From: Chrysomallon squamiferum
Taxonomy: Eukaryota > Animalia > Mollusca
Assembly (NCBI GenBank): GCA_012295275.1
Contig: CM022669.1
Span: 5,270,001 to 5,334,000 of the forward strand
Length of the DNA stretch: 64,000 nt
Direction: 5' to 3'
The notes under the pieces were generated by a model. It had not been told where the DNA came from. It ran no database searches and saw only the letters and a list, made by a program, of their open reading frames with translations. Shown here piece after piece: positions 5,574 through 64,000 of the stretch; within the stretch, counting starts at the first letter, position 1, and each line of letters begins with the position of its first letter. Position numbers and translations under genes: made by a program.

Positions 5574-7926
5574 TCCAGAAGAGGCAGAAAGTCAAAGATA
5601 TTAAAGGGATGAGTAAAAACATGTATCACAGAAGTTGCTTGTTGTAATCAGAGAAATCAATAAACCTACATGACTAGAAAGTGAAAGTGAAAGTAGAGAT
5701 ACAGAAAATGATAAATTAAACAAATTTTTTTTTGTCAAATTATCTTTTTAGCCAAAAATTTGTAATAATAATTCATTAAAGAAAATAAATTAAAAATAAA
5801 TATAAATTCTACTCAGTAAATACTAAAAATTTATGAAGAAATTAAAAATTATTTAAAAAAAAAAAAAAAAAACGAAAAGAGAAAAAAGGTTTGATATAAC
5901 TTGCTATGTTGAATATGAGATTTAATTTCATAATGTGTACAATATAATATATGATGTAGTACTGGTCCCCAAATGAGTGACAACAAGACAAAATTGTTTG
6001 TAAAGGAACAGCACTGTGATTGTTATTTTAAAATAGAATTATACAAATTGATAGCTGGATCATTAATTTGTTTAGTACCCGCTAGTCCATGTTATTGCAG
6101 GAATGACTAGTGTGTGAGACACAAAACTCCCCTCCCAAACCTCCCTCCAAAACCACCCTCCTGTATCAATGCAGATAAACCCATTTTAAACTCTCTCCCT
6201 TCCCTAATATCTGAAGAAAACCACCCACTTGTATCTATGCACGCAAACACATTTCCACTTTTGATCTCTCTCTTCTCTCAAATGTCCCCAGAATACAGAA
6301 AAAACTTTAATCTTGCTTTTCGTAAAAAAAAATGTGTTTCATATTCACATTACCATTTTCATATCCACTTAAACCCATGTAAAATATCAATCCAGTCCTT
6401 CAGCCATCCAATCCCAAAATATTCAAAATAAAAATAATGACACATCAGAACAATCACCAACATAAAACCAGAATTGAGTAGATAACCATCCAGGAACAAG
6501 AAACATTTAATAGTTAAAACATTATTAACTAATTTATTTAGATTATTTATTTATTATTTTTATTATTTAATTGCTAACCCTATAGTTATCTGCTTAGATT
6601 TTCAAGTTTTTAATTTTAATGTTGTTGTTCTTTGTTGTTTTATAGGTTTTTTTCTCGTATTTTTGATATTTTAGAAAATATTAAAATTGCTCTTTTTCCC
6701 TAATTCATTTTTGTTTTATAATTTTTGAATTCTATTTTTATTTTTATTGGTTTTTTACTAACATAAAACAGTATTAAATAAATAAAAATAAATAAAAATT
6801 AAAATATAAAAAGAAATAAAAAGAAAACTTTTTTTTTACAATTTAACCTTATGATAACAAATGACCGATGTATAATACAAATAATTATAATGATTGTCAG
6901 CTTTCCATAGATAACATATATATATAAAAAGGAATTAATGATAATGATTAATAAATAATATTGTGTTATATACATTCATCATACCATCATGACTATAAGA
7001 TACACTACTTGTCTTCTCTCTAATACATTTGATTCACCTATTATGTCAGTAATATTCAGAATGTTGGATACACAATTGATATATATCATATACACCTTGC
7101 TATACTGTCACTTAATAATTTTATAAAAATATTGTATATAATATATTAATATATATAATTTTTTATATATATTATATGTAATTTTCAGCATCAGAAATGG
7201 TTACCACTTCGATAACGTTTCATTCATTTCTTTCATTGATAATCTCTGTGAACTTATTGTAATATGTTTATATTTATTTATTTTTTGTTTTTATTTTTTT
7301 TTTTTTTTTTTTTTTTACAAACGTTTTATTTCACAGTCAAATACTGGATATAATTTTACATTTAATTAATTTTAAAAAATATTACAAGAGAATGGGGACT
7401 GATTTTTGTATCATGAGCTGCTGATGTTTGATATTTCTTATTTTTGATAATAATTACCAATTTCTGGATCACAGACAAAAACAGGTAAAATTGTAAAAAC
7501 AAGTAATATTCATGTAGTCAAACTAAACATTTTTTTTGTTTGTTTTTTAATAGAAAAATGATTTTAATTTCAGGAGCAGTTTAAAGAAAAAAAAAGTTTA
7601 AAAAAAAAAAAACAACTTTGAAATAGGACAGAACATTTCATGATAACAATTTAATTTACTAATTAGACTAATATTTAAAAAAAAAAAAAATTCTGAAGAC
7701 AACCTTTTCAGAAGCTGCCTAATATGCATTTTTTAATAATAATAATACATTTTTTTTTTAAAAATAAAAGCAAGAAGAAAAAGAAGTAATATTAAACTAT
7801 TTTAACAAATATATCATTATAATTCGCAGTAGGTGACAAAAAATTATATAAAAATCAAAAACAAAAACCAAACCTTAACGCTGTAATAATGTATCAAGAT
7901 TTAAATATTTTTGTGATAAATTACTG

Positions 7927-12709: not shown

Positions 12710-14505
12710 CATGACTTAATAACAGTGTAATTGTAAATTTAAGTAAAATATGAAATAACAACATAAAAATAAATACATAAATTAAAAAAGAAGGAAATAA
12801 TAAATTAATAATTTGTATGGTGTAAATAAGTTGTACAAATAATATTAATATTTATAAACAAAAAATATATAACAAGAAATAAATAAAGAATAACATTAGG
12901 AAGACAATAAATAACAATAAAAATTGTAGAGAAAAAACGGAAATTAAAAAATAAATACATTAAAAAAGAACAATATTATTAATAATTATAAATAAATGAA
13001 TAAATATAGTAATAAATTAATGAATAAATGAATAACTTAAAAAGAAACGAAAATAATAAAATAAATAAATATTAAGTCATTAAAAAAACCCCAATAAAAC
13101 ACCCAATAAAATATATAAATAAACAAATAAAATAACAAGAATAATTAAATATAAATAAATAAATAAATTAAAATAAAAGAAATGTGAAAAAAAAAAAAAA
13201 AAAAAAAAAAAATTAAAAAAAAAAAAAACGTAAAAAAAAAAAAAAAAAAAAAGAATAAAAAAATAAAACAAAATGGAAAAGAAAGAAAAAAAGAAAAAGA
13301 TAAAGAAACAAAAGAAAGACACACCTGTGAAGATGACCAGCTGCTAGTTCTCTGGTGGAAGACCTGTCTGCTGGGAGACTGGGGCTGGGGGGGAAGATGA
13401 TTGTCTGTTGTTCCATTCACTTCTGTGTTCTTCTGCTGCACAGAGTTACGAGTTAGTTCCTTGATTTCCTTAAACTTTTCTATAAACTGTAACAAGAAAA
13501 ATGTTTAATTTAAATGAAAATAACAAATGCAATTTAAAACTATGTGCATAAATTTACACAACAGCAACACACACACACACACACACAGACACAGACACAC
13601 AGATTTGCACTTGGTGTATGTGTTAGTGCACATTTCAAAAAGCCTAATTTTGTAACCATTTATTATTTAAAAATTCATTAAAATCCATCTATATTTATAT
13701 ATATATATACTAAATATATTCTTGAAATTGTGAAGTTTAAATTTACAATATAATAATAAGAAAAAAGAGAAATACATGTGTGTGATGATATTTTTTTTAA
13801 CTGTATTTGTCACTGACACTGGTTGTTTTATTAAATGAAATGCAACCATATGACACAAATCATTTTCTACTCAAAGATATCCACATCATTATGGAAAGGA
13901 GAGCCTTAGGCTACAAATGCAGCACAAAGAGACATACAGACAGACACATACACAATTTCTATCAAAAGCATAAACAATTGCAGCTTTTTTTCACACACAT
14001 ACACACACACAATTTGTGTCTCTAATTTTCCTCAGAGACCTATATACCCAGATATACACATTCACACACACCAATAAAATTCAAGTCAGAAACTTCCACT
14101 GCTGTGAACCAAGTCATCAAAAGTGATTTCAGTGTGCCACTCTGCTGTGAATGTGAAGACATGCTCAGTGTTTGTGGACAAACAGACAACAGACACTAGT
14201 CAAACAGTACGTGCTTGTTTGTGTTTGCCTGACTTAGTCAGCCTAAAGCTAACTCAGAGAGAAAATATTTGAAGTGCAAAAACATCTCTGTATATAAAAC
14301 ATTCATGTGAGAACCAGCAAGTCAGAGGATCAATTCTGCTCAGTGCAACAACTGGGCTGTTTTTGAATTCCAGCCAGTAGTCTTGTTTGGCTTATCAATG
14401 ATTTTATGATTTGAATTTTCTCAATATTGCGAAAGTTTACTCTGTCTTTTTCAATATTATCCTCTTCTTCACTTCCTTTCTTTCATACACACACACACAC
14501 ACACA

Positions 14506-44055: not shown

Positions 44056-44603
44056 ATGGCGACTATTACTGTGTCGCCAGGACCTTCAGGGTCAGGTAAG
44101 TTGACCAATGCATTTGGATTCATCATTCAGGATTGGGTGTTTTCTAGATAATTAGAGTTAATTATTAACAACATTTTTAGCTATTTAATATTTTCCTGTT
44201 GCATTAATAGTAATTGATAGATACCTAATTTGAGTCTAGAATGAACAAAAAACCCCATTGGTGTGAAGTATATGCATTAATTTTGTGGTCATTATTAGGT
44301 TAGAGGTTAAGGTCATTGCTGCTAAATTTAGAATCCATTTGCATGATTTGGAAGTCATTTGTTATTATAATGACGTTATTTTTGTGTTGCTATTGAATTT
44401 AAATTCTAAACTAATTATTATCTGTGACACACTGATAGTCATTCTAATTCTGTCAATAAAGAAAAATTACCAATTAAATATTAATATCAACCAAACTTAA
44501 AATAAATAGATTTTTTATTATACCAGTTTTAAAATACTGCACAATATTTTTTTTTATAAAACATTTGATTTAAAAAAATATATAAAAATAATTAATAATA
44601 TTT

Positions 44604-44641
<38 letters not shown>

Positions 44642-47600
44642 GTAAATGTCTAGAAAAATCAGTGAAATAATAATAACTATATATTTAAAAATAATAATAA
44701 TAAAAATAATAATAATAACAATTATAGATATATTAACTACAATAGAATTCAAGTGAAACCAGTATAATTAAAATCAGTAAAGCTAAAAAATTAGTAGTAC
44801 ATAAGTGTAAAAATAAATAATAAAATATATATATGTATGTATTTATATATTGTTCAGAAAACTAAACTGTTTCTCATGAAAGTAATAGAATATGATATTT
44901 ATAGATTTCAAGAAAAAGAAAGTAATTAAAAATATTTTTATGGTAATAATTAGGAATAACAAAATGATTGGAAGTTGAAAGAGTTCCTGTTATTGATAAT
45001 AAGGAATGGCAGACTTAACAATTAATAGATTAAAGAAAAATATGTGTTAGTCATCTTTCAAATTATTTTGAGGTCAGTTTTCTGATAAAGAAAACAAATA
45101 ATGCACATAGTTTAGATTTTTAGGTTAACCATAGAAACTAAAAAAATGTATTCTAGTTTTTAACTGAATTATTAAATAATATTAATGATTTTGGAAAAAA
45201 GAGCAACGTTGCACAAATAATATTGGTCATATCATGACTATTATATAAATTTATGTATAATTTAATTAGAAAAATAAAAAATGAGAGATATTAATGATAT
45301 ATATCTGCCTATTCAGTAGGCCATTTTAAAAATAAAATTGTGAAATGACATTTACACATACAAAGAAAAATAAACTTAAAAGATGAGGAGCATAATAATA
45401 ATGAAATAAAAACAAATGAACAGCTATGGATGGTGCTGATAGAATTAATATTCTAATTTCTACAGTATGGCATGGAATTTGTATGATGGAGAAACCTAAG
45501 TAACCCATTTGTGTCCATATCCTAATTTAACATTATCCAAACATTTTTGTTCACTTATAAAAACTAATACGTTCCAAGAAATAAAATCTATGCTGTTTCC
45601 TCTAAACTGATTTCAGAAAAACAACAATATTTTACAGTATTATTTTATGTCTATATTGTTTTTGATGTTGATTATCAGTATAGTTCATACAAAGATAATG
45701 CAAGAAAATTATGCTATGTAAACTTGTAACAGTTAACTAATTAAATAATTTATTTCATTTAAAAGTAAACAGAATTAACATGATGTTACTTGACAATACA
45801 AATTCCTTTCTTGTTTTTATTATATTCTCTTTTATTTTCCATTCTATATTTATTTGTTATGAATGATACAACTGAAAGCTGTGGGATTGTGTGGTGATTT
45901 TATTTTTTATTTTCCACAGGATAATTATCACTAACATAATAATATTCTTGGATCCATATGCACATATCTATATATTTAATTATGACATTAATGATTAAAT
46001 CATTAATCATTTTTGAAAGAATGAAAGTGAAAATCTTTTTATTATTTTGTTTATGTATTTTGTTTAATATCCATATGTGACCTTGAGGTTTGAAAACCAT
46101 TATATTAAGATATTCTTTTTAAAAAAAATAAAAAAAAAAACCCCCAAACAAACTTAATAAATATAAATTTCTAAAACGTTTTGGATTTTTTTTTAATTTT
46201 TTTATAATATATCAGTGTAATGTTAAAATGAAGCCAAACAGTTTAACCATCTGAATCACATTACCATTAGTTTATCTTATTATTTTAATTTTTAAACTTT
46301 TTTTAAAATGGATATATTTTCTTCAATTTTTGAAATATGTATTTTCTTATTTCTTAATAGGGACACCTGACAGTGGTAAGGGGGCTCGTAAGAGAAAGCC
46401 AGGAAGAGAGTGAGTAACAGTTTTTTAATCCCTCAGTGTTTTTGTCACTATGTTTTTAAAGCAGTCATTGTATTTTATTACATTGTTAATGAATATTATT
46501 TTTGTTTTTAATGTGTATGTGTTTTGTATAATGACTAGATATCATCTACTTAATCAGTCATTTTTTATTATTTTTTAAAATATTTAGTATCCATTATTAG
46601 GACATTCTACAATAGATTTGGAAGTACACATACGTTTGCTTCTAGAACAGTACTGAAGAATAGCTATTGTGTTCTGCTTGTGTATTTGTGTATGAGTATT
46701 TTGTAATTAACATAGAGTTGTATTGCTTATCTCTAGCTCTGATGATGAAGACAGCCAGACTGGGTCATTTGGTGGAAGTGGTGAACATGGCGACAAAGAA
46801 AGGTTTGCTAGGTATTGTGTCCATCTTATTCTATACATTGAACACTTCAAACCAGAGTTTGAGAGTATTTTCTGGATAATCTAGGAGATGTGCATTCATT
46901 AGTTTATGCAAGTTTTCACAATTTTTTAAAAATACATAATGATTTGGAAAAACTGTATTTTGATAACAAATCCAGAAATGTTAAAAGACATTAACTGAAC
47001 ATTCAGTATGAATTTCATATTAACAGTGTTATTTCTTAAATGTTTAAAAGAAAATGGTACTTCTTAAACTATCCTGAATATTGATGAAAAGATAATAACA
47101 GATTATGAGTTAACAGAATTTCTTGAGAGTTTGCAGGGTTAACCACAAATCAGTTAATAAATTTCAGTCCTTATTTATACATACACTATCTGCTGAGACA
47201 AGTAATGCTAAGGTTTTGGTTACACATTTTAGTCATAATATCACTGACAATATTCATTTACCACATTTTCATATCATATAGGTTTTTAGTTGATTTCATT
47301 ATTTTCTTCTTTAAATTGAATATAATTAATATATCATTCAATTTATTGATATAATTATCAAATTTACTAACATAAATATTCCTTTTGCACACCCCTTATG
47401 TATGATAAATGTGTTGTATATATTTAATTTAAAGGTATCTCTATTCTGGAAAGTTGATTTTATTAATTTTAATAATTAAAATTAGTATATTTGTAAGAAA
47501 TAATTTATTATTTTAGTTGGTGCATTATATTTTATTTCAGGTTTTTAATACTAGTAAATTATATAACTTGTGGCATTTTTTAGAATTTGTTTCTTTATTT

Positions 47601-50600
47601 TTCATTTAGTTTTTTAAATATTTTTAAATTTATTTATTATTTTCCATTACCTTTTATTTTAAGTGAGGTAAATCTCATGTTAATAAATAATTAGTGGCAG
47701 AATAATCAAAAGCAATTATGGAATTATTCAGTAAGGAAAAGATTACTTTGGAAAAATGAAGGGGGATAATTTACAACTGATGATTTCAGGGTTTAAAATT
47801 TACAACAGAAATTTAGTTTGGATAAATATTTACATTTTTCTTAAATGGAATTATTTATTAAAGTTGTAAAAATGTCTCAGGATTATGATCAGAACTAAAA
47901 TTTGTTACACTGTTTAATGATTCTTGATAGCACATTAGTGATTAAATGAGACTATTGAAAGACAAATTCAGTAAGATCAAGAATTTAAAATTATAAAACG
48001 AAACATTTTTTTATATAATACGTCCATAATTGATATTTAGTTTCTGTGTAACAGGATGACTAAGGTTTGGTTGGATATTTTATGGGATTATCCCACAGTG
48101 TTTTTACATGTAACATTTTTAGGGAAAGCCACTGTGAGATTGAACGTCGCCGTAGAAACAAGATGGCTCACTACATCAATGAGCTGTGTGACATGGTACC
48201 CACGTGTAGCCATTTGTCACGAAAACCTGACAAGCTGACTATTCTCCGAATGGCAATTTCCTACATGGAAAAACTGCGAGGTGATGTTACGCAAGCACGT
48301 GTGTCTGTCGGCACTCTTTTTTTTTTGTGATTTTTGTTTTAATTTTGTTTTCTTTATTCTGTCACCCTTGGTTCCTTGCTGCTGTGGTGTGCCAGATGAA
48401 AATAAACAACATTCAGCCAGTGTGAAATCTTTGTAAATAACATTAGAGTTTGCATTAGTTGAAATACTCATTTCATATTTTTTTTTTTTTTTTTTTTTTT
48501 TTTGTGGTTTTAAAAAACAAAATAGTTACTAACCTCGATCATTTAGCTGGTGAGTTGTTGTTGATTTCTTGTGTCGAGCGTTGGGTCTGGTTTCTGTTTT
48601 GCAGAGAGAGTCATTGTGAGATAGAGAGGCGGCGAAGGAACAAAATCACATCATACTTCAGCGAGCTGTGTGACATGGTGCCCACCGTCAGTCAGCTGTC
48701 TCGCAAACCCGACAAACTGACCATTCTCAGGATGGCAGTCTCCCATGTGAAATCTCTAAAAGGTGCCGCCTGCCACCACCCACCTCAGTCTCACCCACCC
48801 TTGTTAATTGGATTTTATTACTTACCTTTTTCCAACAAAAGCTGTCTGGTACATATTTTTAGAAAGAACAAAACAACAAATGATAAAAATTGTCCGGGAT
48901 TTCCACTTGGTTGATAAAAATTTACACCCTGGGGCAGTGATGTTTATGGTTACTTTTTTTCCACGGCTGTTCATTGTTCAATCTCAAAGTGGCATTTGTC
49001 ACTGGTGGCATATTTGTTTGTCTTTTCAGTTTTACAAATTGTAAATCTGAGCAGTGTGAAAACAAAACAAAAAAAGGTGTCCTTGAGGCCTCATTTCTCT
49101 GCACAATTGGACTCAGTAACTCTACAAATGGGATCTGGTTTATATTTCCAGGGAGAGTCATTGTGAGATTGAACGCCGCCGTCGAAATAAAATGACATCA
49201 TACATCAATGAACTGTGTGATATGGTCCCCACATGTAGCCAGTTGGCAAGGAAACCCGACAAATTGACAATTCTACGAATGGCTGTTTCTCACATGAAGA
49301 ATCTTCGAGGTGACACAAGTAACTTGCTCACCAGTCTCATATCACTCACAATCTATGCTTCCAAAACTTAATAAAACATTACATGCTAACATTTATTTCT
49401 TATTTGATAATCAGGGTATTATATTAAAAAAAACAAAAAAAAACAATAATAACAATAAAAACAAATTGTATAATTAAAATTGTAAGCATGTGTCTTGTGT
49501 CAAACAGCTTGCATTTAGAGTAAGCATGTTTTGTTTTTTTAAAAACAAAATTTGGTCTCCATTTAGAAAGCTTTATTTATCAATTTCACAAAGTAACTTG
49601 AGGATTAACACAGCATTAGCAGCTTGTCTGTACTAGTCACTAATTTTGGTTTCTTTGACCTAACAGCTTTTGATGGAACCAGGGGTGTCAGAATTAACAA
49701 GGGTGCTGCCACTGATGTTGTGTGTTTTTCTGTTTTTTTTTGTATTAATATCACATAACCAGTAACAATAAACTAACATGTATGTGTGTGAAAGATGAAA
49801 ATGTGTCAGTAAAATTTGTTATCACATTTTAAGCCTTCATGTCTACATTTTTTCTGGTGCCAACAAACGTTTTAATTTAAGGAAAAAGTAATTTTAATAC
49901 ATCATACGTATTATTACTTTTTCTTTTCTTCAGATAAAGAAACTGTTACAGATTTATAGTTATGGCATAACAGATAAATATTTAAAAAAAATTTATTATG
50001 AAGCATTTAAAAAAAAAATTATGTATTTTATATTAATCACTTTTCTCATACAGAATATTATTACTGACATTATTATTGCTGATATTGTTTTGTTGGTTGC
50101 ACACTTTTTAAAACATATCATTTAGTAATTATATAATTTTTGTTTTGACTCTGATGTTACTTAATGAAAGATGAGGGTTTAGCTCAGTGATGAGATGATA
50201 TATTCACCTATTTCCCTTTGCCTTCAATATCCTGTGACTGGTTTATCAAAAACTCAACTGAGAATGAATATTTAAAACCAGTCCCTGCTTATCTGTAATA
50301 ATTAACCACAGAGTGGCAGGCATCCACAGGTTTCTTCTTATGTATAAAAACAGTCTAAAAAATCCTTTAATTTAGACTTGAACAAATGTTCATTCTTTCT
50401 GACTGCTATTGTAGGTACGGGGAACACTTCAAGTGATGGGTCATACAAACCTTCATTTCTCACAGATCAGGAGCTCAAACATCTCATTCTTGAGGTTTGT
50501 CAAATAACCCTGTCTTCAGAATATTAAGTAGATTTATCTTTTTAAATATAAACATTATTGTTAAAACAGAGGCCAGAGTTATTGATATATTTTGACTGGT

Positions 50601-53600
50601 ATTAATGATCATAATATATGTGCATATTGGAAAGAAAAACAAATGCATAATAAAAGAGATGATAATTTTAATTAATGTAAATTTCATGTTATTGTTTGTA
50701 TAAAATTGAATAATGGTGTTCAAAATGTGTGATGAATAAACATAAAAATGTGTAAACGTGTTTCTTAAAGAAGACAGCAGTTTTTTTCTGATATATATAT
50801 ATTTTTAATTACATTTTCTTTCTTTTGCTTATCATAGGCTGCTGATGGGTTTCTATTTGTTGTGCAGTGTGACACAGGACGTATTATATATGTTTCAGAC
50901 TCTGTAACACCTGTATTAAACCAGTCTCAGGTATGTTGAAATGACACCTTAAGTATTTATAAAGCATTGTGAATCATCATTTAAACTATTGTTATTTTCA
51001 AATGCTTTGTTAATATTAAATATTTTATCATAATTTACATTCATATTTAATAATAATATCGTATTAATTTATTTCATATTTTATAAAAAGATTGTATTAA
51101 TTAATATTCACCCTGTATAATAATGTTTTAAATTACATTCACAATATAAAGCAGTGCATTACATTACTAGCATATGGTATTATATAATAATAATAACAAT
51201 AATGTATTAATTTATATTATATAACACTATTGTGTTGCAGTCTGACTGGTTTGGTAATGTCCTGTATGAGCTAGTTCACCCAGATGATGTGGAGAAAGTT
51301 CGTGAACAGTTGTCTACCTCTGAGTCTCAGAACACGGGCCGCATCCTTGATCTAAAGAGTGAGGCATTTCTAAACTGTTTTATTCACAGTCTTTCTAAAT
51401 CACTTTCTTTTACATAAATCTTAGTTTTAATTTTTTAGTTTGCATGTGAAGTTATTTTTCAACCCACTGGCTTTATCCAACGGTGTTACTTTCAGAATTA
51501 CTTTCATATTTTTTTAATGTAACTTTCATTCATTGTCCAAGCAAAAACATTTAAAATTTTTATTATTATTTTGGAATAAAGTAAAACTGACTTGATAAGC
51601 AACATTTTAATTTGTATGTTTTTACAGTAATTATTTGGATAACAATATGAAAAAAATGTGATCACTTTCTTTTTAAAAGTCCATAAGTAGTAAAATAAGT
51701 GTAATTTTTTATTCCATGTAAATTAATTTTATATTATAGTTTTTTAATTTTTTAAATTTGCAGCTGGAACGGTCAAGAAGGAAGGACATCAATGTAAGTT
51801 TTTGTCTCTGACCTTGATATTTAATTCATATTTGAGTAATTATATAGAGAGGTATTCAGTTTTATGAAGAGTAGTATATTGCAAGAGTCTGATTTTTGCT
51901 CCTAGACAAATATTTAAGTGGCATATGCTTTAATATGTGCTATTATCTCTCTCTCTCTGTTAAAATAATTTTACTATTCATTGTTTGCAGCTTCTATTCG
52001 CCTGTGTATGGGATCTCGAAGAGGTTTTATTTGTCGAATGCGGATGGGTAATGTTCAACTTGATCCAATGACAGCAAACCACAGTGTAAGAATGAGACAG
52101 CGCAACCCACTGGGCCCATCAAATGATGGCAACCATTACTGTGTGGTGCATGTAACAGGCTACATAAAAAACTGGCCTCCATCAGGTATACTGACATTTT
52201 GTTTTTATTTCTGATTTTGTAGAAGATGTAAAATATTATTGTCCTAATCTTAATATCATTAAACTGTTGCAAAACTTTGTAATGTTTAAATTTACCTATT
52301 GTGTTCTATGATAAATTGAATTATTCTACTTCTGTTTCTGAGAATATATTTATCAACATGTAAAGCTATTTTTATTTGCATATATAGTTATATTCACAAA
52401 TCTTAAGGCACTGTTTATTGTGAATAGAGCAGTATTTTATTGTTCCTTTTTTCTTTTCTTTTTTATAATGTCAGCATCCTACAATTCAGTTCTACTTTGT
52501 CTGTTCTACTCTATTTTACATATTTTAGGAGTTCCTATAGAGCGCAGTGACACAGATGAACATGGAGGCAGTCACTGTTGTTTGGTTGCTATAGGGAGAC
52601 TTCAAGTAAGAGCTGGTTTTTTAAACAAGTTTGTCAGTCTTCCAAGTACTTAATTGCCCTTTTATAAAAATTAACAGAGATAAATGAATTAACTTTTCAG
52701 CATTTTCATCAGTGATGTGGTTAGTTTTCTTTAAAAAAAATCAACAACATAAAGTATATTGAAATAAGCATCACTTTACTGAATCATTTCATTGCTTATT
52801 TTTTTCTGAAAGTATTTCTGAAAAAGACATGACTTATTATGGGTAAAGATGCTTTTCATTCTCTTGTAATTTACATCAGAGAAAACGCTGCACCAAAGTT
52901 TATCTGGAAAATTACGTGCAACACAAAGAATTGCATGAAAAAGAAGAAAGATTTGCCAGCAAAATTCTGTTGCCAAATTAATTCTAATATAAAAATTCCA
53001 AGTATTTCTTCCAGAAGTAAATGTTACGTTTATTACTTTGGATTAGTACTTTTCACATTTATCCATAAATAAATGCATTCTTGATATTTAGAATTAAGAT
53101 TTTTCAGGATTTATTGAATTTGTTGTTTTATTAACAAGTTATTTCCCTTTACCTGGATTTTATGTTCACATATTTGTATGCTTATATTAAATGTTTTTAA
53201 AAGTTGAAATTCTAAACTTAAATAATAGTTTTAATTTACAAAAAAAAGAATTTAAAAATTTAAATTAAGAAACAGATTGTAGATATAAGTAATAGTTCAT
53301 TTAGTTAATTAATTTCAACAGCATGTAACTTTTTAATATTTATTATTTGTTTTTAGATATTTACAAATGTTAGTTTTGTATCTTTTAAGGATGTCATCCA
53401 GTTTGTTTATATGATAATCTTTCATCTGTTATATATATATATACATACACATACAAAATAAACATATTTTTTTCTCTTTTCTTTTGCATAAATAGTTTTA
53501 ATGCTATTTATGGGTTTTATTCTTATTGTTCATGTAGTCACTTAAGCGGCATCAATATTTAAGTAAATAAATAAATAAATAAATAAATACTGGTCTCTAC

Positions 53601-55303
53601 TACTTCATAAGATGAATTTCAAAATGTTCAATCTCTATTAAGGTGAGATTAGTTTTAGACTGTTTGCTGATGTTAATTGTGTTTGTTTTAGGTGACCAGT
53701 ACACCTAACTGTAGTGACATGATGGGGCCAAATGCAGCTACAGAATTTATCTCAAGGCATTGTGTTGATGGCAAATTTACTTTTGTTGACCAAAGGTAAA
53801 GTTACTGTTCATAGTAATTGTAAACCCTGACTTCAAAAAAAAAAAAAAAAAAACCAAAAGAAAATTCAGAAATATAAATTGTATTTGCAGTATTTATGAA
53901 AGTTTATTTTCAAAGCTTATTTTTACCATGGAAAGTATTCATCTTGTACTAACTTGTTACCTTAACAAGGCACATTTATAGTTGGAGCGGTATTTTGTTA
54001 TTTTATAAACTGCACATTAATAAAATGTGGAAACATTTACATGTTACAGAGTGACAGCCGTTCTGGGATATCAGCCTCAAGATTTGCTGGGCAAATCAGC
54101 GTTTGATTTTTACCACCCTGAAGATCAGAGTCATATGAAAGAGACATTTGATCAAGGTATCATGCTTGCGAAAGAAATTATTTACAAATTTAGAATTAAC
54201 TGAAGGACATGCTTTGTTAATAAAGTAAAGAAGAAAATATTATTTGGATTACTTTGTACAATAAAAGTTAAATCTTCAGTGTTGTTGAAAAAGTCCTAAA
54301 ATTCCTACAACAGGAATTCATTTAAAAAAAAAAAAAAACCTTACTGCACATTGTGCAAAACAATATTATTATAAAACATTTATACTAAACCAGTTTATAA
54401 AAACTTTATTTTAGAATAATTTGGAAAGTTTTTGTTTTAAATAGTGCTGAAGTTAAAAGGTCAGGTCATGTCAATTATGTACCGTTTCCGGGCATCCAAT
54501 CGAGAGTGGGTGTGGCTTAGAACAAGCAGTTTCAGTTTTCAGAACCCATACACAGATGAAGTAGAGTACATTGTTTGTACAAACTCCTCAGCAAAGTAAG
54601 CAGATTTATACCTGAAACAAAATGGTCTTTGTTTTCTAGCATCTTTGTCTGATGCAGTTTTTGTAAAGCATTGTTCATGCTATATTCCATTTGAATTTTT
54701 ATTATCAGTGTGTTGAAAATGATTCTGTTTATAAAATAGAATGACTGTGCTTGTTATTTTTCTTTCAGAAAATTAAATATCTATCTAAAATAATATCTAT
54801 ATAAAAATGTATTTTTCCTAGGGATTAGTCTTTTTGTTTTTTAATTTTAAAAAGATTTTTAAAAGTATAGCTATATTCATTATGTATTTACTTATCAGTT
54901 ATATAGCAGGTTCTGCTCAAATGTGTAAAACAAGTTTTAAAATGTCTCTTTGCATAGGGGAGTACAGCAAGGCGGAGCCTCAGCCCTTCCAGCAGTTGAC
55001 CAGGCATCTGATTCGGGTGTCATCAATTCATTTCCAGCTGCCCGACCCATGCACCAGGAACACATGGTGATCAGCAGCGGCAGTGGCAAGTCGGACTACC
55101 GTGACAACAGCTACCATGGAGCTGACATGTACAGGACTGTCCAGCCTGAGGTGTTCGGTTCGTACCAGCAGTCAGGGGGTGTCAAATATCCGAGTCTGTC
55201 CACCCAGAACAACATGGGTATGTCCCAGTCAGTCAACTCAATGAGACGCAGCCCGTCACAGACCACTAGTGGCTGGACAGCACAGGGATATCCCAGACCA
55301 GAG
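44056..55303 (+). CDS. ARNT: ARNT / HIF-1beta / tango bHLH-PAS transcription factor, 3'-incomplete; exons 44056-44095, 46361-46409, 46737-46811, one of [48123-48280 | 48605-48762 | 49152-49309], 50415-50494, 50838-50930, 51241-51358, 51764-51793, 51991-52185, 52529-52605, 53692-53795, 54050-54156, 54445-54595, 54958-55303
   Basis: The spliced frame stays open for 541 codons: [29 protein letters not shown]...[20 protein letters not shown]...[36 protein letters not shown] (PAS-A)...[15 protein letters not shown]...[18 protein letters not shown] (PAS-B)...[17 protein letters not shown]. These are diagnostic ARNT motifs, and all introns are GT-AG with matching phases. Confidence 0.96.
48123..48280 (+). 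CDS. ARNT: ARNT bHLH exon, alternative A (158 nt)
   Basis: tttttag|G GAA AGC CAC...CTG CGA G|gtgatg; [52 protein letters not shown]. Confidence 0.88.
48356..48375 (+). promoter_or_regulatory. Putative RNA selector element after exon A
   Basis: attctgtcacccttggttcc pairs with ggaaccaggggtgtcagaat (49675-49694): 18 Watson-Crick pairs, 1 G-U and 1 U-U mismatch. Confidence 0.75.
48605..48762 (+). CDS. ARNT: ARNT bHLH exon, alternative B (158 nt)
   Basis: ttttgcag|A GAG AGT CAT...CTA AAA G|gtgccg; [52 protein letters not shown]. Confidence 0.88.
48796..48845 (+). promoter_or_regulatory. Putative RNA selector element after exon B
   Basis: cacccttgttaatt (48796-48809) is the perfect complement of aattaacaagggtg (49692-49705). 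ttccaacaaaagctgt (48830-48845) pairs 15/16 with acagcttttgatggaa (49663-49678). taccttt (48823-48829) pairs with aggggtg using G-U pairs. Confidence 0.78.
49152..49309 (+). CDS. ARNT: ARNT bHLH exon, alternative C (158 nt; closest to canonical ARNT)
   Basis: tttccag|G GAG AGT CAT...CTT CGA G|gtgaca; [52 protein letters not shown]. Not in the ORF track. Confidence 0.93.
49663..49707 (+). promoter_or_regulatory. Putative shared RNA docking site downstream of the bHLH exon cluster
   Basis: acagcttttgatggaaccaggggtgtcagaattaacaagggtgct is a GC-richer island complementary to both selectors, with overlapping footprints. Confidence 0.78.
50172..50345 (+). mobile_element. Degenerate tRNA-derived / Meta-like SINE relic
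   Basis: An A-box-like tagctcagtgatgag is followed by gtgactggtttatcaaa and ccctgcttatc...agagtggcaggc..caggtttcttc, resembling the SINE core. Confidence 0.35.
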
Positions 55304-55589: not shown

Positions 55590-58500
55590 GAAGATTTTAG
55601 ATAATTAACAAGATTTTGAAATAGAATTATATTGAAGTCAAAACTATTTTCAAATACTATTTATTATCATAAAATTATTTAAAAATGTTGTTTTTGTTTC
55701 ATGTGTGTGTGTGTGTGTGAATGTTTGTCTGTCTGTCTGTATATTTTATATTTGATATTTCATTTAATACTTTTCTCACGCTAAAACAGATAAGAATTCT
55801 TGCATTTCTGTATGTTTAAACTACATGTTGCTATGGAAGCAGCAGCTGTCAAGTTGTGAACTCAAATGAACAAAATTCATGATGACGAACATGAAATTGA
55901 TTTTTATCAAAATAAAGCTACTAAAATGTTTGTATCTTGGTAACTACAACAGTGACTGTCTGTGTGGTTAACCAGCGTCATTGAACATTTTAGATAAATA
56001 AATTATGGATTTTGGAAGACATCTAAATATTATTAAAACTTTCTTATAGAATTATATTGAAATCAAAACTGTTTTCAAATACTATTAATTCTGTAATTAG
56101 TAAATTAAATTTTGTTTTTATGAGTATGGGTTTTGGGGAGGGTTTAGTATGATTAGTTTTATATGAATGATAAAAGAACATTTTAAAAAAAAAGTCACAG
56201 TTTAATTTGTTCGCTGTTGTTATATATGTGTTTGTATCTGTGTATTGTTTACAGTTATTCAGTTAGTTTTGATACTTGTCTCAACCTAAGAAGATGTTAA
56301 TGGAAGTATGTTTCAGTATTGCTCACACATACATCTCAAAACATCTCATTAATTAATATGATAAGAATTAGATTTTTAGGGTCCCTAACCTTTACAGATT
56401 TCTTGCGTTTTACATGTTTAAACTACATGTTGCTATGGAAGCAGCTGCCATCATGTTTGTGAGCACAGATGAACAAAATTCATGATGACGAACATGAGAT
56501 TGATTTTTATCAAAATAAAATTTACTAGAATGTCTGTATCTTGGTAACCACAACAGTGACTGTCTGTGTGGTCATCCTTCATCATTGAACATTTTAGATA
56601 AATAGTTTTTTGAAGACATCTTAGATTTCAGAATAAAACCACCAATATTATTAGAACATTTCTAGTATAATTATATTAAAATCAAAACCATTTTCAAATA
56701 GATTGTTATTGTTATAATTAGTCAATTAATTATTTTGTTATTTATGAGAACTTACATTTTTTTTGGGAGGGTTTAGTCTGATTAGTTTTATGAAATTAAT
56801 TGTGAATGATAAAAGAAAATTTAAAAATAAATTCAGTTTAATTGTTCACTGTTCATATATTGATGTTTGCGTGGGTGTATATTTTACAATTTTGATGTAG
56901 ATATTTTACTATTTAGTCAGTTTTGATACTTGTCTCAACCTAAGAAGATGTTAATGGAAGTATGTTTCAGTATTGCTCACACATACATCTCAAAACATCT
57001 CATGAGTTAATATGATAATAATTAGATTTTTAGGGTCCCTAACCATTACAGATTTCTTGCGTTTTACATATTTAAACTATATGTGGCTATGGAAGCAGCT
57101 GCCATCATGTTTGTGAGCTCAGATGAACAAAATTCATGATGACGAACATGAGACTGATTTTTATCAAAATGAAACTAGAATGTCTATATCTTGGTAACAA
57201 CAACAGTGACTGTCTGTGTGGTCATCCTTCATCATTGAACATTTTAGATAAATAATGTTTTGGCTTTTGGAATAAAACACCAATATTATTAAAAATTTCT
57301 AGTATAATTATACTGAAATCAAAACTATTTTCAGATAGATTATTTGTCTTATAATTAGTAAATTAATTATTTACTAGAATTTAATTGGTTTTTAGGTGGG
57401 GGTTTTTATTATTATTTTTTAGAATGGGTAGTTTTGTGGGATTAATGCTGTGAATGATAAAATAATTTAAAAAAAAGTCAGTTTAATTGTTGACTGTTGG
57501 TGTATTTTTACAGTTTTGATGTAGATATTTTACTATTTTGTTTTGATATTTGTCTCAACCTTTAAAAGATGTTCATGGAAATATGGTGCAATATTGCTCA
57601 CACACATATCTCAAAACTTCACAATAATTAATATAAGATTTCTTGCATTTGTACGTGTTTAAAACACATGTTGCTATGGAAGCAGCTGCCATACTATTTA
57701 TGAGCTCACATGAACAAAATTCATGATGACGAACAAGACACTATTTTTCATCAAAATAAAGCTTCTAAGATTTTTGTATCTTGGTAACCACAACAGCGAC
57801 TGTCTGTGTGGTCATCCTGCATCATTGAACATTTTAGATAAATAATTTTTGGAAGACATCTTAGATTTCAGAATAAAACCACCAATATTGTTAACATTTC
57901 TAGTATAATTATATTGAAATAAAAACCATTTTCAAATAGATTGTTATTGTTATAATTAGTAAATTAATTATTTTGTTATTTATGAGAACTTATGGGTTTT
58001 TGGGGAGGGTTTAGTATGATTAGTTTTATGAAATTAATTGTGAATGATAAAAGAAAATTTAAAAATAAATTCACAGTTTAATTGTTCACTGTTCATATAT
58101 TGATGTTTGCGTGGGTGTATATTTTACAGTTTTGATGTAGATATTTTACTATTTAGTCAGTTTTGAAACTGGTCTCAACCTAACAAAGATGTTATTAGAA
58201 GTATAGTACAATATTGCTCCCACCTACGTCTCAAAACATCTCACTAATTAATATATTACAAATTAGATTTATGTATAGGTCCTTAAACATATTCCCATTA
58301 CCGATTTCTTGCATTTCTACATGTTTAAGCTACATGTTGCTGTGGAAGCAGTTGCCATCGTGTTTATAAGCTCACATGAACAAATTCATGGTGACGAACA
58401 TGAGATTGATTTTTGTAAAAATAAAATTTACTAGAATGTCTGTATCTTGGTAACCACAACAGTGACTGTCTGTGTGGTCATCCTTCATCATTGAACATTT

Positions 58501-61500
58501 TAGATAAATAGTTTTTTGAAGACATCTTAGATTTCGGAATAAAACCACCAATATTATTAGAACATTTCTAGTATAATTATATTAAAATCAAAACCATTTT
58601 CAAATAGATTGTTATTGTTATAATTAGTCAATTAATTATTTTGTTATTTATGAGAACTTACGTTTTTTTTGGGAGGGTTTAGTCTGATTAGTTTTATGAA
58701 ATTAATTGTGAATGATAAAAGAAAATTTAAAAATAAATTCAGTTTAATTGTTCACTGTTCATATATTGATGTTTGCGTGGGTGTATATTTTACAATTTTG
58801 ATGTAGATATTTTACTATTTAGTCAGTTTTGATACTTGTCTCAACCTAAGAAGATGTTAATGGAAGTATGTTTCAGTATTGCTCACACATACATCTCAAA
58901 ACATCTCATGAGTTAATATGATAAGAATTAGATTTTTAGGGTCCCTAACCATTACAGATTTCTTGCGTTTTACATATTTAAACTATATGTGGCTATGGAA
59001 GCAGCTGCCATCATGTTTGTGAGCTCAGATGAACAAAATTCATGATGACGAACATGAGATTGATTTTTATCAAAATAAAACTAGAATGTCTATATCTTGG
59101 TAACAACAACAGTGACTGTCTGTGTGGTCATCCTTCATCATTGAACATTTTAGATAAATAATGTTTTGGCTTTTGGAATAAAACACCAATATTATTAAAA
59201 ATTTCTAGTATAATTATACTGAAATCAAAACTATTTTCAGATAGATTATTTGTCTTATAATTAGTAAATTAATTATTTACTAGAATTTAATTGGTTTTTA
59301 GGTGGGGGTTTTTATTATTATTTTTTAGAATGGGTAGTTTTGTGGGATTAATGCTGTGAATGATAAAATAATTTAAAAAAAAGTCAGTTTAATTGTTGAC
59401 TGTTGGTGTATTTTTACAGTTTTGATGTAGATATTTTACTATTTTGTTTTGATATTTGTCTCAACCTTTAAAAGATGTTCATGGAAATATGGTGCAATAT
59501 TGCTCACACACATATCTCAAAACTTCACAATAATTAATATAAGATTTCTTGCATTTGTACGTGTTTAAAACACATGTTGCTATGGAAGCAGCTGCCATAC
59601 TATTTATGAGCTCACATGAACAAAATTCATGATGACGAACAAGACACTATTTTTCATCAAAATAAAGCTTCTAAGATTTTTGTATCTTGGTAACCACAAC
59701 AGCGACTGTCTGTGTGGTCATCCTGCATCATTGAACATTTTAGATAAATAATTTTTGGAAGACATCTTAGATTTCAGAATAAAACCACCAATATTGTTAA
59801 CATTTCTAGTATAATTATATTGAAATAAAAACCATTTTCAAATAGATTGTTATTGTTATAATTAGTAAATTAATTATTTTGTTATTTATGAGAACTTATG
59901 GGTTTTTGGGGAGGGTTTAGTATGATTAGTTTTATGAAATTAATTGTGAATGATAAAAGAAAATTTAAAAATAAATTCACAGTTTAATTGTTCACTGTTC
60001 ATATATTGATGTTTGTGTGGGTGTATATTTTACAGTTTTGATGTAGATATTTTACTATTTAGTCAGTTTTGAAACTTGTCTCAACCTAACAAAGATGTTA
60101 TTAGAAGTATAGTACAATATTGCTCCCACCTACGTCTCAAAACATCTCACTAATTAATATATTACAAATTAGATTTATGTATAGGTCCTTAAACATATTC
60201 CCATTACCGATTTCTTGCATTTCTACATGTTTAAGCTACATGTTGCTGTGGAAGCAGTTGCCATCGTGTTTATAAGCTCACATGAACAAATTCATGGTGA
60301 CGAACATGAGATTGATTTTTGTAAAAATAAAGCTACTAAAATATTTGTATCTTGGTAACTACAACAGTGACTGTCTGTGTGGTTAACCTGCGTCATTGAA
60401 CATTTTAAATAAATAAATTATGGATTTTGGAAGACATCTAAATATTATTAAAACTTTCTTGTAGAATTATATTGAAATCAAAACTGTTTTCAAATACGAT
60501 TAATTCTGTAATTAGTAAATTAATTATTTATTTTATTTAATTGGTTTTTTGTTTTTTATTATTTTTTTAGAATGGTTAGTTTTTTGGGATGAATGCTGTG
60601 AAAAAAATAATTTTAAAAAAGTCAGTTTAATTGTTGACTGTTGGTATATTTTTACAGTTTTGATGTAGATATTTTACAGTTATTTTGTTTTGATATTTGT
60701 CTCAACCTTTAAAAGATGTTAATGGAAGTATGTTTCAGTATTGCTCACACATACATCTCAAAACATCTCATTAATTAATATGATAAGAATTAGATTTTTA
60801 GGGTCCCTAACCATTACAGATTTCTTGCGTTTTACATGTTAAAACTATATGTGGCTATGGAACCAGCTGCCATCATGTTTGTGAGCACAGATGAACAAAA
60901 TTCATGATGATGAATCAAGCATTTATTTTTATCAAAATAAAACTACTAGAATGTCTGTATCTTGGTAACAACAACAGTGACTGTCTGTGTGGTCATCCTT
61001 CATCATTGAACATATTAGATAAATAATTTTTGGAAGACATCTTAGATTTCAGAATAAAACCACCAATATTATTAAAAAATTTCTATTATAATTATATTAA
61101 AATAAAAACAATTTTCAAATAGATTGTTATTGATATAATTAGTAAATTAATTATTTTGTTATTTATGAGAACTTACGATTTTTTTGGGAGGGTTTAGTAT
61201 GATTAGTTTTATGAAATTAATGCTGTGAATGGTAAAAGAAAATTTAGAAAGAAATTCACAGTTTAATTGTTCACTGTTCATATATTGATGTTTGCGTGGG
61301 TGTATATTTTACAGTTTTGATGTAGATATTTTACTATTTAGTCAGTTTTGAAACTTGTCTCAACCTAACAAAGATGTTATTTTGGAAGTATGGTACAACA
61401 TTGCTCCCACCTACGTCTCAAAACATCTCACTAATTAATATATTACAAATTAGATTTATGTATAGGTCCTTAAACATATTCCCATTACCGATTTCTTGCA

Positions 61501-64000
61501 TTTCTACATGTTGCTTTGGAAGCAGTTGCCATCATGTTTATAAGCTCACGTGAACAAAATTCATGATGACGAACATGAGATTGATTTTTATCAAAATAAA
61601 ACTACTAGAATGTCTATATCTTGGTAACAACAACAGTGACTGTCTGTGTGGTACTCCTTCATCATTGAACATTTTAGATAAATAATGTTTTGGCTTTTGG
61701 AATAAAACACCAATATTATTAAAAATTTCTAGTATAATTATATTGAAATCAAAACTATTTTCAGATAGATTATTTGTCTTATAATTAGTAAATTAATTAT
61801 TTACGAGAATTTAATTGGTTTTTAGGTGGGGGTTTTTATTATTATTTTTTAGAATGGGTAGTTTTGTGGGATTAATGCTGTGAATGATAAAATAATTTTT
61901 AAAAAAATGTCAGTTTAATTGTTGACTGTTGGTTTATTTTTACATTTTTGATGTAGATATTCTTTTACTATTTAGTTTTGATATTTGTCTCAACCTTTAA
62001 AAGATGTTCATGGAAGTATGGTGCAATATTGCTCACACACATATCTCAAAACTTCACAATAATTAAAATGATAAGATTTCTTGCATTTGTATGTGTTTAA
62101 AACACATGTTGCTATAGAAGCAGCTGCCATCCTATTTATGAGCTCACATGAACAAAATTCATGATGACGAACAAGACACTATTTTTCATCAAAATAAAGC
62201 TTCTAAGATTTTTGTATCTTGGTAACCACAACAGCGACTGTCTGTGTGGTCATCCTGCATCATTGAACATTTTAGATAAATAATTTTTGGAAGACATCTT
62301 AGATTTCAGAATAAAACCATCAATATTATTAAAAAAATTCTGTTATATTAAAATAAAAACCATTTTCAAATAGATTGTTATTGTTATAATTAGTAAATTA
62401 ATTATTTTGTTATTTATGAGAACTTATGGGTTTTTGGGGAGGGTTTAGTATGATTAGTTTTATGAAATTAATTGTGAATGATAAAAGAAAATTTAAAAAT
62501 AAATTCACAGTTTAATTGTTCACTGTTCATATATTGATGTTTGTGTGGGTGTATATTTTACAGTTTTGATGTAGATATTTTACTATTTAGTCAGTTTTGA
62601 AACTTGTCTCAACCTAACAAAGATGTTATTAGAAGTATAGTACAATATTGCTCCCACCTACGTCTCAAAACATCTCACTAATTAATATATTACAAATTAG
62701 ATTTATGTATAGGTCCTTAAACATATTCCCATTTCTGATTTCTTGCATTTCTACATGTTTAAGCTACATGTTGCTGTGGAAGCAGTTGCCATCGTGTTTA
62801 TAAGCTCACATGAACAAATTCATGGTGACGAACATGAGATTGATTTTTGTAAAAATAAAGCTACTAAAATATTTGTATCTTGGTAACTACAACAGTGACT
62901 GTCTGTGTGGTTAACCTGCGTCATTGAACATTTTAAATAAATAAATTATGGATTTTGGAAGACATCTAAATATTATTAAAACTTTCTTGTAGAATTATAT
63001 TGAAATCAAAACTGTTTTCAAATACTATTAATTCTGTAATTAGTAAATTAATTATTTTATTTAAGAGATTTTTGTTTTTGTTTTTTTATAGTGGTTAGTT
63101 TTATGAATGATAAAAGAACATTTTAAAAAAGTCACAGTTTAATTGTTCGCTGTTGGTATATATGTGTTTGCATCTGTGTATTGTTTACAGTTATTCAGTT
63201 AGTTTTGATACTTGTCTGAATCTAAGAAGATGTTAATGGAAGTATGTTTCAGTATTGCTCACACATACATCTCAAAACATCTCATTAATTAATATGATAA
63301 GAATTAGATTTTTAGGGTCCCTAACCATTACAGATTTCTTGCGTTTTACATGTTTAAACTATATGTGGCTATGGAACCAGCTGCCATCATGTTTGTGAGC
63401 ACAGATGAACAAAATTCATGATGATGAATTAAGCATTTATTTTTATCAAAATAAAACTACTAGAATGTCTGTATCTTGGTAACAACAACAGTGACTGTCT
63501 GTGTGGTCATCCTTCATCATTGAACATATTAGATAAATAATTTTTGGAAGACATCTTAGATTTCAGAATAAAACCACCAATATTATTAAAAAATTTCTAT
63601 TATAATTATATTAAAATAAAAACAATTTTCAAATAGATTGTTATTGATATAATTAGTAAATTAATTATTTTGTTATTTATGAGAACTTATGATTTTTTTG
63701 GGAGGGTTTAGTATGATTAGTTTTATGAAATTAATGCTGTGAATGGTAAAAGAAAATTTAGAAAAAAATTCACAGTTTAATTGTTCACTGTTCATATATT
63801 GATGTTTGCGTGGGTGTATATTTTACAGTTTTGATGTAGATATTTTACTATTTAGTCAGTTTTGAAACTTGTCTCAACCTAACAAAGATGTTATTTTGGA
63901 AGTATGGTACAACATTGCTCCCACCTACGTCTCAAAACATCTCACTAATTAATATATTACAAATTAGATTTATGTATAGGTCCTTAAACATATTCCCATT
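55590..64000. repeat. Intronic tandem array of ~585-670-bp units (13 complete cores, truncated by the window end) with higher-order structure
   Basis: Unit starts (ttcttgc) at ~55797, 56399, 57052, 57638, 58304, 58959, 59545, 60211, 60821, 61492, 62077, 62739 and 63335. Every unit contains gactgtctgtgtggt. Near-identical blocks recur at offsets of ~1907 and ~2515-2530 bp. Confidence 0.95.

What the first reader, a model, noticed from the sequence alone, without database searches (positions are those of the whole stretch)
48123..49309. ARNT has three tandem, intact, mutually exclusive bHLH exons that vary the dimerisation surface but not the basic region
Seen: three paralogous exons, each exactly 158 nt, with AG/GT boundaries and the same phases (2 in, 1 out). 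All fit between the constitutive ...KERFAR exon and the GTGNTSSDG exon. Using these splice sites, including 0, 2 or 3 copies shifts the frame, so only single inclusion is productive. The basic region [13 protein letters not shown] is identical in all three even though its codons differ heavily at synonymous sites, which points to purifying selection rather than decay. Substitutions fall in helix 1 (MAHYIN / ITSYFS / MTSYIN), the loop and helix 2 (ISYMEKLR / VSHVKSLK / VSHMKNLR): A/C 8, B/C 8 and A/B 13 differences in 52 aa. Established: ARNT is the common partner of HIF-alpha, AHR, SIM and NPAS/Trh and normally has one bHLH exon; the precedent for duplicated, mutually exclusive bHLH exons is vertebrate TCF3 E12/E47. 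Inference: one gene makes three ARNTs with the same DNA half-site but different partner preference, doing by splicing what vertebrates do with ARNT/ARNT2. I do not know of this being described for ARNT, but could not check the literature.
Basis: partly seen in the sequence, partly recalled or inferred. Interest (0 to 1): 0.92.

Follow-up and report, generated by a model that had tools for sequence, protein, structure and literature searches.

The report
Three swappable bHLH exons in ARNT
A mollusc's ARNT gene, the shared partner in oxygen and toxin sensing, carries three alternative copies of its DNA-binding exon, two of them seen spliced in singly, with the choice likely made by competing RNA base-pairing and the protein versions predicted to differ in how they pair up.

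Summary
A molluscan ARNT gene (nearest to abalone) has three 158-nt bHLH exons, A, B and C. Only single inclusion keeps the frame, and pN/pS is 0.10-0.18. RNA contigs show upstream exon-B-downstream exon and upstream exon-C-downstream exon, with no B-C joint. Exon A is supported only indirectly, by contig end positions.

(1) Intronic segments behind A and behind B are both complementary to one site downstream of C, stronger than in all controls (0 of 19 shuffles, 0 of 20 real tiles). This is the 14-3-3zeta-type docker/selector layout; it is predicted, not tested. (2) A duplicated ARNT bHLH is not unique to this animal. Two annelid-like contigs hold tandem exons, nemertean RefSeq isoforms swap the bHLH, and the 'four ARNT genes' published for Lingula look like two exon pairs. 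The window's triplet is probably a separate origin.

The proposed change in partner preference is untested, and the ARNT/ARNT2 analogy is weak. Ten literature searches found no description.

The parts
44056..55303 (+). ARNT (HIF-1beta) gene, start codon to the last exon found; the final C-terminal exon was not found in the window
   Evidence: tblastn with lophotrochozoan ARNTs; spliced model open for 541 aa; C-terminal search negative
46737..46811 (+). constitutive upstream exon (E3), ends in the first part of the basic region, phase 2
   Evidence: its last 27-30 nt are joined to B and to C in RNA contigs
48123..48280 (+). alternative bHLH exon A
   Evidence: Pfam HLH 55.8 bits; splicing inferred from contig end positions, not seen directly
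48351..48375 (+). predicted selector behind exon A (71 nt after its donor), complementary to 49675-49703
   Evidence: 24 bp, -34.7 kcal/mol; best 30-nt duplex of this intron, reached by 0 of 54 control tiles
48527..48533 (+). perfect branch-point consensus ahead of exon B, about 250 nt from A's donor (too far for steric exclusion)
48605..48762 (+). alternative bHLH exon B
   Evidence: E3-B-E5 on one contig in run X3; E3-B and B-E5 on overlapping contigs in X1; Pfam HLH 58.4 bits
48796..48850 (+). predicted two-part selector behind exon B (34 nt after its donor): 48796-48809 pairs with 49692-49705 (14 of 14 Watson-Crick), 48823-48850 pairs with 49658-49687
   Evidence: part of the minimum-energy fold of 48200-49800
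49152..49309 (+). alternative bHLH exon C, the near-canonical copy (up to 96% identical to other mollusc ARNT bHLH)
   Evidence: E3-C-E5 on one contig in run X1
49658..49705 (+). predicted shared docking site, 349 nt after C's donor; 19 of the 24 nucleotides paired by selector A are also paired by selector B
50415..50494 (+). constitutive downstream exon (E5)
   Evidence: its first 26-28 nt are joined to B and to C in RNA contigs

Best explanation
This is a cluster of three tandem-duplicated bHLH exons in a molluscan ARNT gene; B and C are each spliced in alone, A likely is too, and the choice is likely made by two intronic selectors that compete for one downstream docking site, giving three ARNTs predicted to differ in dimer packing. 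In the model, pairing of the selector behind A loops out B and C and leaves A. Pairing of the selector behind B loops out C and leaves B. With no pairing, C is used (inferred, by analogy to insect 14-3-3zeta and srp). Messages with 0, 2 or 3 copies carry an early stop and would be removed by nonsense-mediated decay (the stop is shown, the decay is inferred). The three proteins share the basic region and all PAS domains, so they would keep ARNT's DNA half-site and differ in helix-loop-helix packing, most likely tuning dimer stability more than switching partners (inferred, untested).
For: Single-inclusion junctions for B (runs X1, X3) and C (X1), and no B-C joint in the 3 RNA runs laid. The C contig carries 27 nt of E3 and 26 nt of E5. 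Of the known paths, only one through exon A gives these lengths under a 30-nt overlap; the others give 29-30 and 28. The 30-nt overlap is visible in the same run, and X2 also ends at 26. Frame test. pN/pS 0.10-0.18. Pfam HLH scores of A and B are no lower than C's. Joint docker score -45.7 kcal/mol against -31.0 +/- 1.8 in 19 shuffles (0 of 19) and a mean of -32.0, best -35.9, in 20 real tiles (0 of 20). A-paired and B-paired folds lie within 3.5 kcal/mol of each other and 21-24 below the fold with the docker held open. The donors of A, B and C match only 0-1 of 4 consensus bases at +3 to +6. The same layout is described for insect clusters (PMC6071210, PMC4691838).
Against: Exon A was not seen directly in RNA. 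All RNA runs are from one study, and they are contigs, not reads. The junction flanks (26-30 nt) are under the tool's 31-letter bar for bridging. Run X2 has a contig E3-B-intron-C-E5, which is either a partly spliced message or an assembly path and does not fit strict exclusivity. With 30-nt windows selector B alone is not significant (2 of 54 tiles as strong), and the joint test was designed after the site had been seen. No relative with the same introns was found, so there is no covariation evidence. No shared docker was found in the two annelid-like loci. Three constitutive donors (E3, E9, E12) score as low at +3 to +6 as A and C. Nothing tests partner binding.
Confidence: 0.65

Rival explanations
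1. The exons are mutually exclusive, but the choice is made by splicing-regulator proteins on weak splice sites (as hnRNPH1 and PTBP1 do for TCF3) with NMD as filter; the complementary segments are incidental.
For: Weak donors and the frame filter could suffice. The TCF3 precedent (PMC6795145, abstract). No conserved pairing in the annelid-like pair L003/L005. The E3-B-intron-C-E5 contig in X2.
Against: Two different introns converge on one 48-nt site far beyond both controls, in the positions the known model predicts.
Confidence: 0.17
2. The three isoforms are real but functionally almost equivalent: A and B are kept as working bHLH domains that drift at tolerant positions, with no change in partner or target.
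For: Basic region and PAS domains are shared. ARNT2 keeps all ARNT interface residues (PMC5111884). pN/pS shows constraint, not divergence of function.
Against: A and B each carry 8 changes in a domain where the other molluscs sampled differ at only a few positions. B's I14, F18, V28 and V48 and A's E49 and K50 occur in 0 of 89 other distinct segments. A second exon type has been kept in annelids and a brachiopod.
Confidence: 0.13
3. Only B and C are used; A is a silent or rarely used copy.
For: No direct RNA observation of A. Its selector is costly to open locally (12.8 kcal/mol).
Against: Three contig ends in two runs fall exactly where junctions to A predict. A/C pN/pS is 0.10 with pS 0.72.
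Confidence: 0.05

Closest known systems
Vertebrate TCF3 (E2A) exons 18a/18b, giving E12 and E47
   Same: Mutually exclusive exons that swap the bHLH domain of one transcription factor (PMC6795145, abstract).
   Different: TCF3 has two exons and a different bHLH class; its isoforms differ in DNA binding and dimerisation, and the choice is made by hnRNPH1 and PTBP1 on silencers. Here there are three exons, an identical basic region and a predicted RNA docker.
Insect downstream docker/selector clusters (14-3-3zeta, Mhc, MRP1, Dscam exons 4 and 9; srp stem II)
   Same: Selectors behind the upstream variants and one docking site downstream of the cluster; 14-3-3zeta also has three exons (PMC6071210). 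In srp, downstream pairing is needed for the upstream exon (PMC4691838, passages).
   Different: Those were shown by conservation and, in part, by compensatory mutation in insects. Here the gene is molluscan, the pairing is only predicted, and the two selectors use overlapping but offset registers on the docker.
ARNT/HIF-1beta family (vertebrate ARNT and ARNT2, Drosophila Tango)
   Same: bHLH-PAS-A-PAS-B protein; the best solved-structure matches are ARNT, then ARNT2, well above BMAL1; 92% identical to abalone ARNT over the PAS region.
   Different: Among the listed members of 8 mollusc clusters each had one bHLH sequence. Vertebrate ARNT and ARNT2 are separate genes with conserved interfaces (PMC5111884).
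'Linked ARNT paralogs' of Lingula and Capitella in Bao et al. 2017 (PMC5381572)
   Same: More than one ARNT bHLH sequence per genome.
   Different: Published as 4 genes each. The supplement rows show two Lingula pairs of about 159-nt stretches some 500 nt apart on one strand, and two Capitella entries with different bHLHs followed by the same PAS-A residues. I read these as alternative exons of one gene (inference).

Membership tests
ARNT (class II bHLH-PAS) | bHLH closer to ARNT than to BMAL1 | tested here: met
   exon C 85-86 bits to ARNT chains against 62-67 to BMAL1; B 75 against 54-58
ARNT (class II bHLH-PAS) | PAS-A and PAS-B regions following the bHLH in one reading frame, grouping with ARNT orthologues | tested here: met
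   tblastn and gene model; the tree places it among mollusc ARNTs (87/88, not starred), nearest Haliotis; the tree held ARNTs only
ARNT (class II bHLH-PAS) | heterodimerises with HIF-alpha, AHR, SIM or Trh | not testable with these tools
   no partner sequence from this animal was available
Tandem-duplicated mutually exclusive exon cluster | homologous exons of equal length and phase between shared flanking exons | tested here: met
Tandem-duplicated mutually exclusive exon cluster | at least two variants each found alone in mature RNA | tested here: met
   E3-B-E5 (X3, X1) and E3-C-E5 (X1)
Tandem-duplicated mutually exclusive exon cluster | variants are not spliced to each other | tested here: inconclusive
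   no B-C joint in 3 RNA runs, but contigs drop rare forms, A was not covered, and X2 has a contig with B, the intron and C
Downstream docker/selector clusters (14-3-3zeta type) | a selector behind each upstream variant, complementary to one site downstream of the cluster | tested here: met
Downstream docker/selector clusters (14-3-3zeta type) | pairings compete for the same nucleotides | tested here: met
   19 docker nucleotides shared in the predicted duplexes
Downstream docker/selector clusters (14-3-3zeta type) | conserved across species with compensatory changes | tested here: inconclusive
   no relative with this triplet was found; the annelid-like pair shows no shared docker
Downstream docker/selector clusters (14-3-3zeta type) | disruptive and compensatory mutations change exon choice | not testable with these tools
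   needs a minigene
Annelid/brachiopod 'type-2' ARNT bHLH variant (my label) | diagnostic residues at positions 12, 15, 18, 27, 43, 46 and 52, and grouping in the type-2 clade | tested here: not met
   A shares 1 of 7, B and C none. The type-2 clade (97/99) excludes A, B and C, but AU tests do not reject adding A (p 0.47) or B (p 0.14).

The most novel reading that the evidence does not exclude
The ARNT bHLH exon is a long-standing splicing switch of lophotrochozoans. An exon pair dates back to the annelid-brachiopod ancestor and has been miscounted as paralogous genes; the same exon was duplicated again in a nemertean and triplicated in this mollusc, where an RNA docker picks the copy. Each copy gives the shared partner of HIF, AHR, SIM and Trh a different dimer preference, so splicing reroutes oxygen, toxin and developmental signalling.
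Probability: 0.3. Interest if true: 0.87.

Novelty: new variant of a known kind. Interest (0 to 1): 0.72.

Why it matters
ARNT is the common partner of the hypoxia, xenobiotic and SIM/Trh pathways, and its bHLH hardly varies across animals. A gene that offers three versions of that domain gives natural variants for asking which helix-loop-helix residues set dimer strength or partner choice. It would extend the downstream docker/selector mechanism, described for insects in the papers read here, to a mollusc, in a 3.7-kb cassette that fits one minigene. It also suggests that published ARNT gene counts for Lingula and Capitella include alternative exons, and that this exon has been duplicated repeatedly in one animal clade.

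Tried and rejected
Assembly artefact: rejected. Steric exclusion: rejected; the introns are 324 and 389 nt and B's branch consensus lies about 250 nt from A's donor. Minor-spliceosome incompatibility: none of the donors has a U12-type sequence (consensus recalled). A helix between the region before B (48546-48575) and C's donor (-28.1) is within the control range (mean -25.2, sd 2.7) and is not claimed. Upstream dockers (intron before A against the introns behind A or B) reached only -20.5 and -22.0. Poly-U against A-rich matches were set aside as low complexity. Local alignments gave no convincing homology among the three post-exon introns. Searches for close relatives of B and of the variable C-terminal exon (no hit) found no species sharing the triplet; A was never used as a database query. 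No whole genome is held. P0002 (pseudoscorpion, two identical copies) and P0253/P0254 (BMAL-like repeats) look like annotation or assembly duplications and were not counted. The 52-column exon tree leaves the order of duplications open and neither shows nor rejects A+B+C as a clade (p 0.32). No structure or complex prediction was run: no partner sequence from this animal was on hand. A paper search for the ARNT interface mutants I recall found nothing. Our earlier findings held nothing.

Full report
OBSERVATION. Each is 158 nt, between AG and GT, and open in one frame. tblastn with other ARNTs gave the rest of the gene. With 13 constitutive exons from 44056 to 55303, the frame is open for 541 codons in 3 of 8 combinations, those with exactly one of A, B or C; the other 5 stop at codon 61-121. 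The last exon was not found; a tandem array fills the window from about 55790. Amino-acid differences are 8, 8 and 13, pS is 0.72-0.86, pN is 0.075-0.15 and pN/pS is 0.10-0.18. pS is near saturation, so these ratios overstate dN/dS. All three score alike against Pfam HLH (55.8, 58.4, 55.5 bits).

GENE AND ORGANISM. The bHLH matches solved ARNT chains far better than BMAL1. Over the PAS region the protein falls among mollusc ARNTs, nearest to Haliotis (92% over 315 columns), then limpets; no well-supported group holds it. It is probably a gastropod (inference). I know nothing about its habitat, so no link to low oxygen is claimed.

RNA. Five runs hold the stretch, four of them RNA runs from one study. 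Three of the four RNA runs and the fifth run were laid on 48510-49415, which covers B and C but not A. X3 has one 216-nt contig reading upstream exon (E3)-B-downstream exon (E5). X1 has E3-B and B-E5 on two overlapping contigs and E3-C-E5 on one 211-nt contig; their depths are 48 and 55.5, which the tool calls a poor measure of expression. No B-C joint was listed. The loose ends are exact matches to exons 1.1-2.3 kb away, although at 26-30 nt they are under the tool's 31-letter bar. X2 has a contig E3-B-intron-C-E5: a partly spliced message or an assembly path, and a result against strict exclusivity. X5 laid nothing. For exon A the evidence is indirect. These contigs end at branch points with a 30-nt overlap, as seen at 48603-48632 in X1. 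The C contig carries 27 nt of E3 and 26 nt of E5. A path through A predicts exactly 27 and 26; B or the introns predict 29-30 and 28. X2 also ends at 26. I put the use of A at about 90%.

HOW THE CHOICE IS MADE. A scan of all six intron pairs found that the best duplexes of the intron behind A and of the intron behind B fall on one site in the intron behind C. Selector A (48351-48375) pairs with 49675-49703 (24 bp, -34.7 kcal/mol). Selector B pairs in two nested parts, 48796-48809 with 49692-49705 (14 of 14) and 48823-48850 with 49658-49687. Nineteen docker nucleotides are claimed by both. With 30-nt windows, 0 of 54 window tiles match A's duplex but 2 of 54 match B's. A joint test (the weaker of the two pairings on one 70-nt site) gave -45.7 against -31.0 +/- 1.8 in 19 dinucleotide shuffles (0 of 19) and a best of -35.9 in 20 real tiles (20 of 22 planned were run). 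That test was set up after the site was seen. In folds of 48200-49800 the B-paired state is the minimum (-399.5), the A-paired state lies 3.5 above it, and the state with the docker held open lies 24 above it. This is the layout described for 14-3-3zeta, Mhc and MRP1, where the docker is downstream of the cluster (PMC6071210; part 1 of 5 of the text plus passages). In srp, downstream pairing is required for the upstream exon (PMC4691838; passages). Shown: complementarity, overlap, frame filter. Inferred: that the helices form, that they activate the exon outside the loop, that C is the default, and that NMD clears double inclusions. Conservation could not be tested because no relative with these introns was found.

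THE SAME EXON IS DOUBLED ELSEWHERE. (1) Of 80 metagenome loci (the best 80 of 190), 24 are genomic and span both flanking exons. Two of these, L003 and L005 (annelid-like by sequence), hold two 158-nt bHLH exons and 22 hold one; many of the 22 are near-redundant. (2) A Paralvinella gene model holds the same two types in the same order. (3) Lineus longissimus RefSeq isoforms X1 and X2 are both 680 aa and differ at 19 positions, all inside the bHLH; X4 and X5 differ likewise. I did not see the genomic locus. (4) Bao et al. 2017 (PMC5381572; section 12, passages and supplement rows; the linkage figure was not visible) count 4 ARNT genes in Lingula and 4 in Capitella, and mention linked ARNT paralogs. 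Their Lingula entries are two pairs of about 159-nt stretches some 500 nt apart on one strand, the downstream one being the same variant as the second annelid exon. Two Capitella entries have the two variants followed by the same PAS-A residues. I read these as alternative exons (inference). In other loci the second type lies on its own contig with its own downstream exon, apparently a separate gene (L059 against L027), and L043 shows it spliced singly. Among the listed members of 8 mollusc clusters each had a single bHLH sequence; three clusters were listed only in part (15 of 25, 15 of 112, 15 of 22).

ORIGIN. The second annelid type forms a supported clade (97/99) without A, B or C, but AU tests do not reject adding A or B, nor do they show A+B+C as a clade. 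All three window exons have Q or H at position 30, seen in 0 of 89 other distinct segments. A separate triplication in this mollusc's lineage is the simpler reading (about 75%).

FUNCTION. The basic residues are shared, so the DNA half-site should be too (established bHLH knowledge, recalled). Relative to C, B changes M14I, I18F, N19S, C28V, A32S, M48V, N50S and R52K; A changes T15A, S16H, Q30H, A32S, V45I, H47Y, K49E and N50K. From memory, positions 14, 18, 45 and 48 lie in the four-helix core; a search for the relevant mutants found no paper. Against a partner switch: ARNT heterodimers use six interfaces, and all ARNT interface residues are conserved in ARNT2 (PMC5111884; passages and part 2 of 6 of the main section). 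The PAS domains are common to A, B and C. Tuning of dimer stability is therefore more likely than a clean switch; neither is tested.

KNOWN OR NEW. It works like TCF3 E12/E47 in outcome (PMC6795145, abstract) and like 14-3-3zeta in predicted mechanism. It is an ARNT and a tandem mutually exclusive cluster by the tests run; docker membership lacks conservation and mutation tests. Ten full-text searches listed no paper on alternative bHLH exons in ARNT, judged by titles and abstract starts. A review of HLH proteins (PMC6317319, passages) repeats the paralog reading of Bao et al. Subscription papers are not in the library, so absence from print is not proven.

VERDICT. Real and expressed, not described in what I could search, with a specific testable mechanism and a wider pattern across four phyla. 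The functional consequence is open. Interest 0.72.

Noticed in passing
window 55790-64000: Tandem array of AT-rich units of about 600 nt (75-91% alike, with a stronger period near 1250 nt) inside what is probably ARNT's last intron; the final ARNT exon is not in the window.
   Followed up: partly
L003 4706 and 5241; L005 1198 and 1465: In both annelid-like loci the exon upstream of the bHLH pair also has a shorter look-alike copy with the same ending and a GT donor, conserved between the two loci: a possible second alternative pair.
   Followed up: partly
L005 about 5898-5977 and 6031-6110: The exon downstream of the bHLH pair is also present twice in tandem in L005, each copy with AG/GT; no second copy was seen in L003.
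   Followed up: partly
window 48546-48575 with 49311-49336: Possible helix that would cover C's donor and the region before B; its energy is within the control range.
   Followed up: partly
window 48816 and 48973: Two single-base differences in RNA contigs; 48816 falls in the unpaired gap between the two arms of selector B. One site, no weight.
   Followed up: no
P0325 (Intoshia linei): The orthonectid ARNT carries the annelid-type second bHLH variant.
   Followed up: no
L059, L062, L064, L068 against L027, L021, L015: In some assemblies the two bHLH types lie on different contigs, most with their own downstream exon, suggesting that an exon pair was resolved into two genes.
   Followed up: partly
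window 1632-1991 (+) and 13148-13504 (-): Open stretches with protein-like composition upstream of ARNT, perhaps exons of neighbouring genes; not identified.
   Followed up: no
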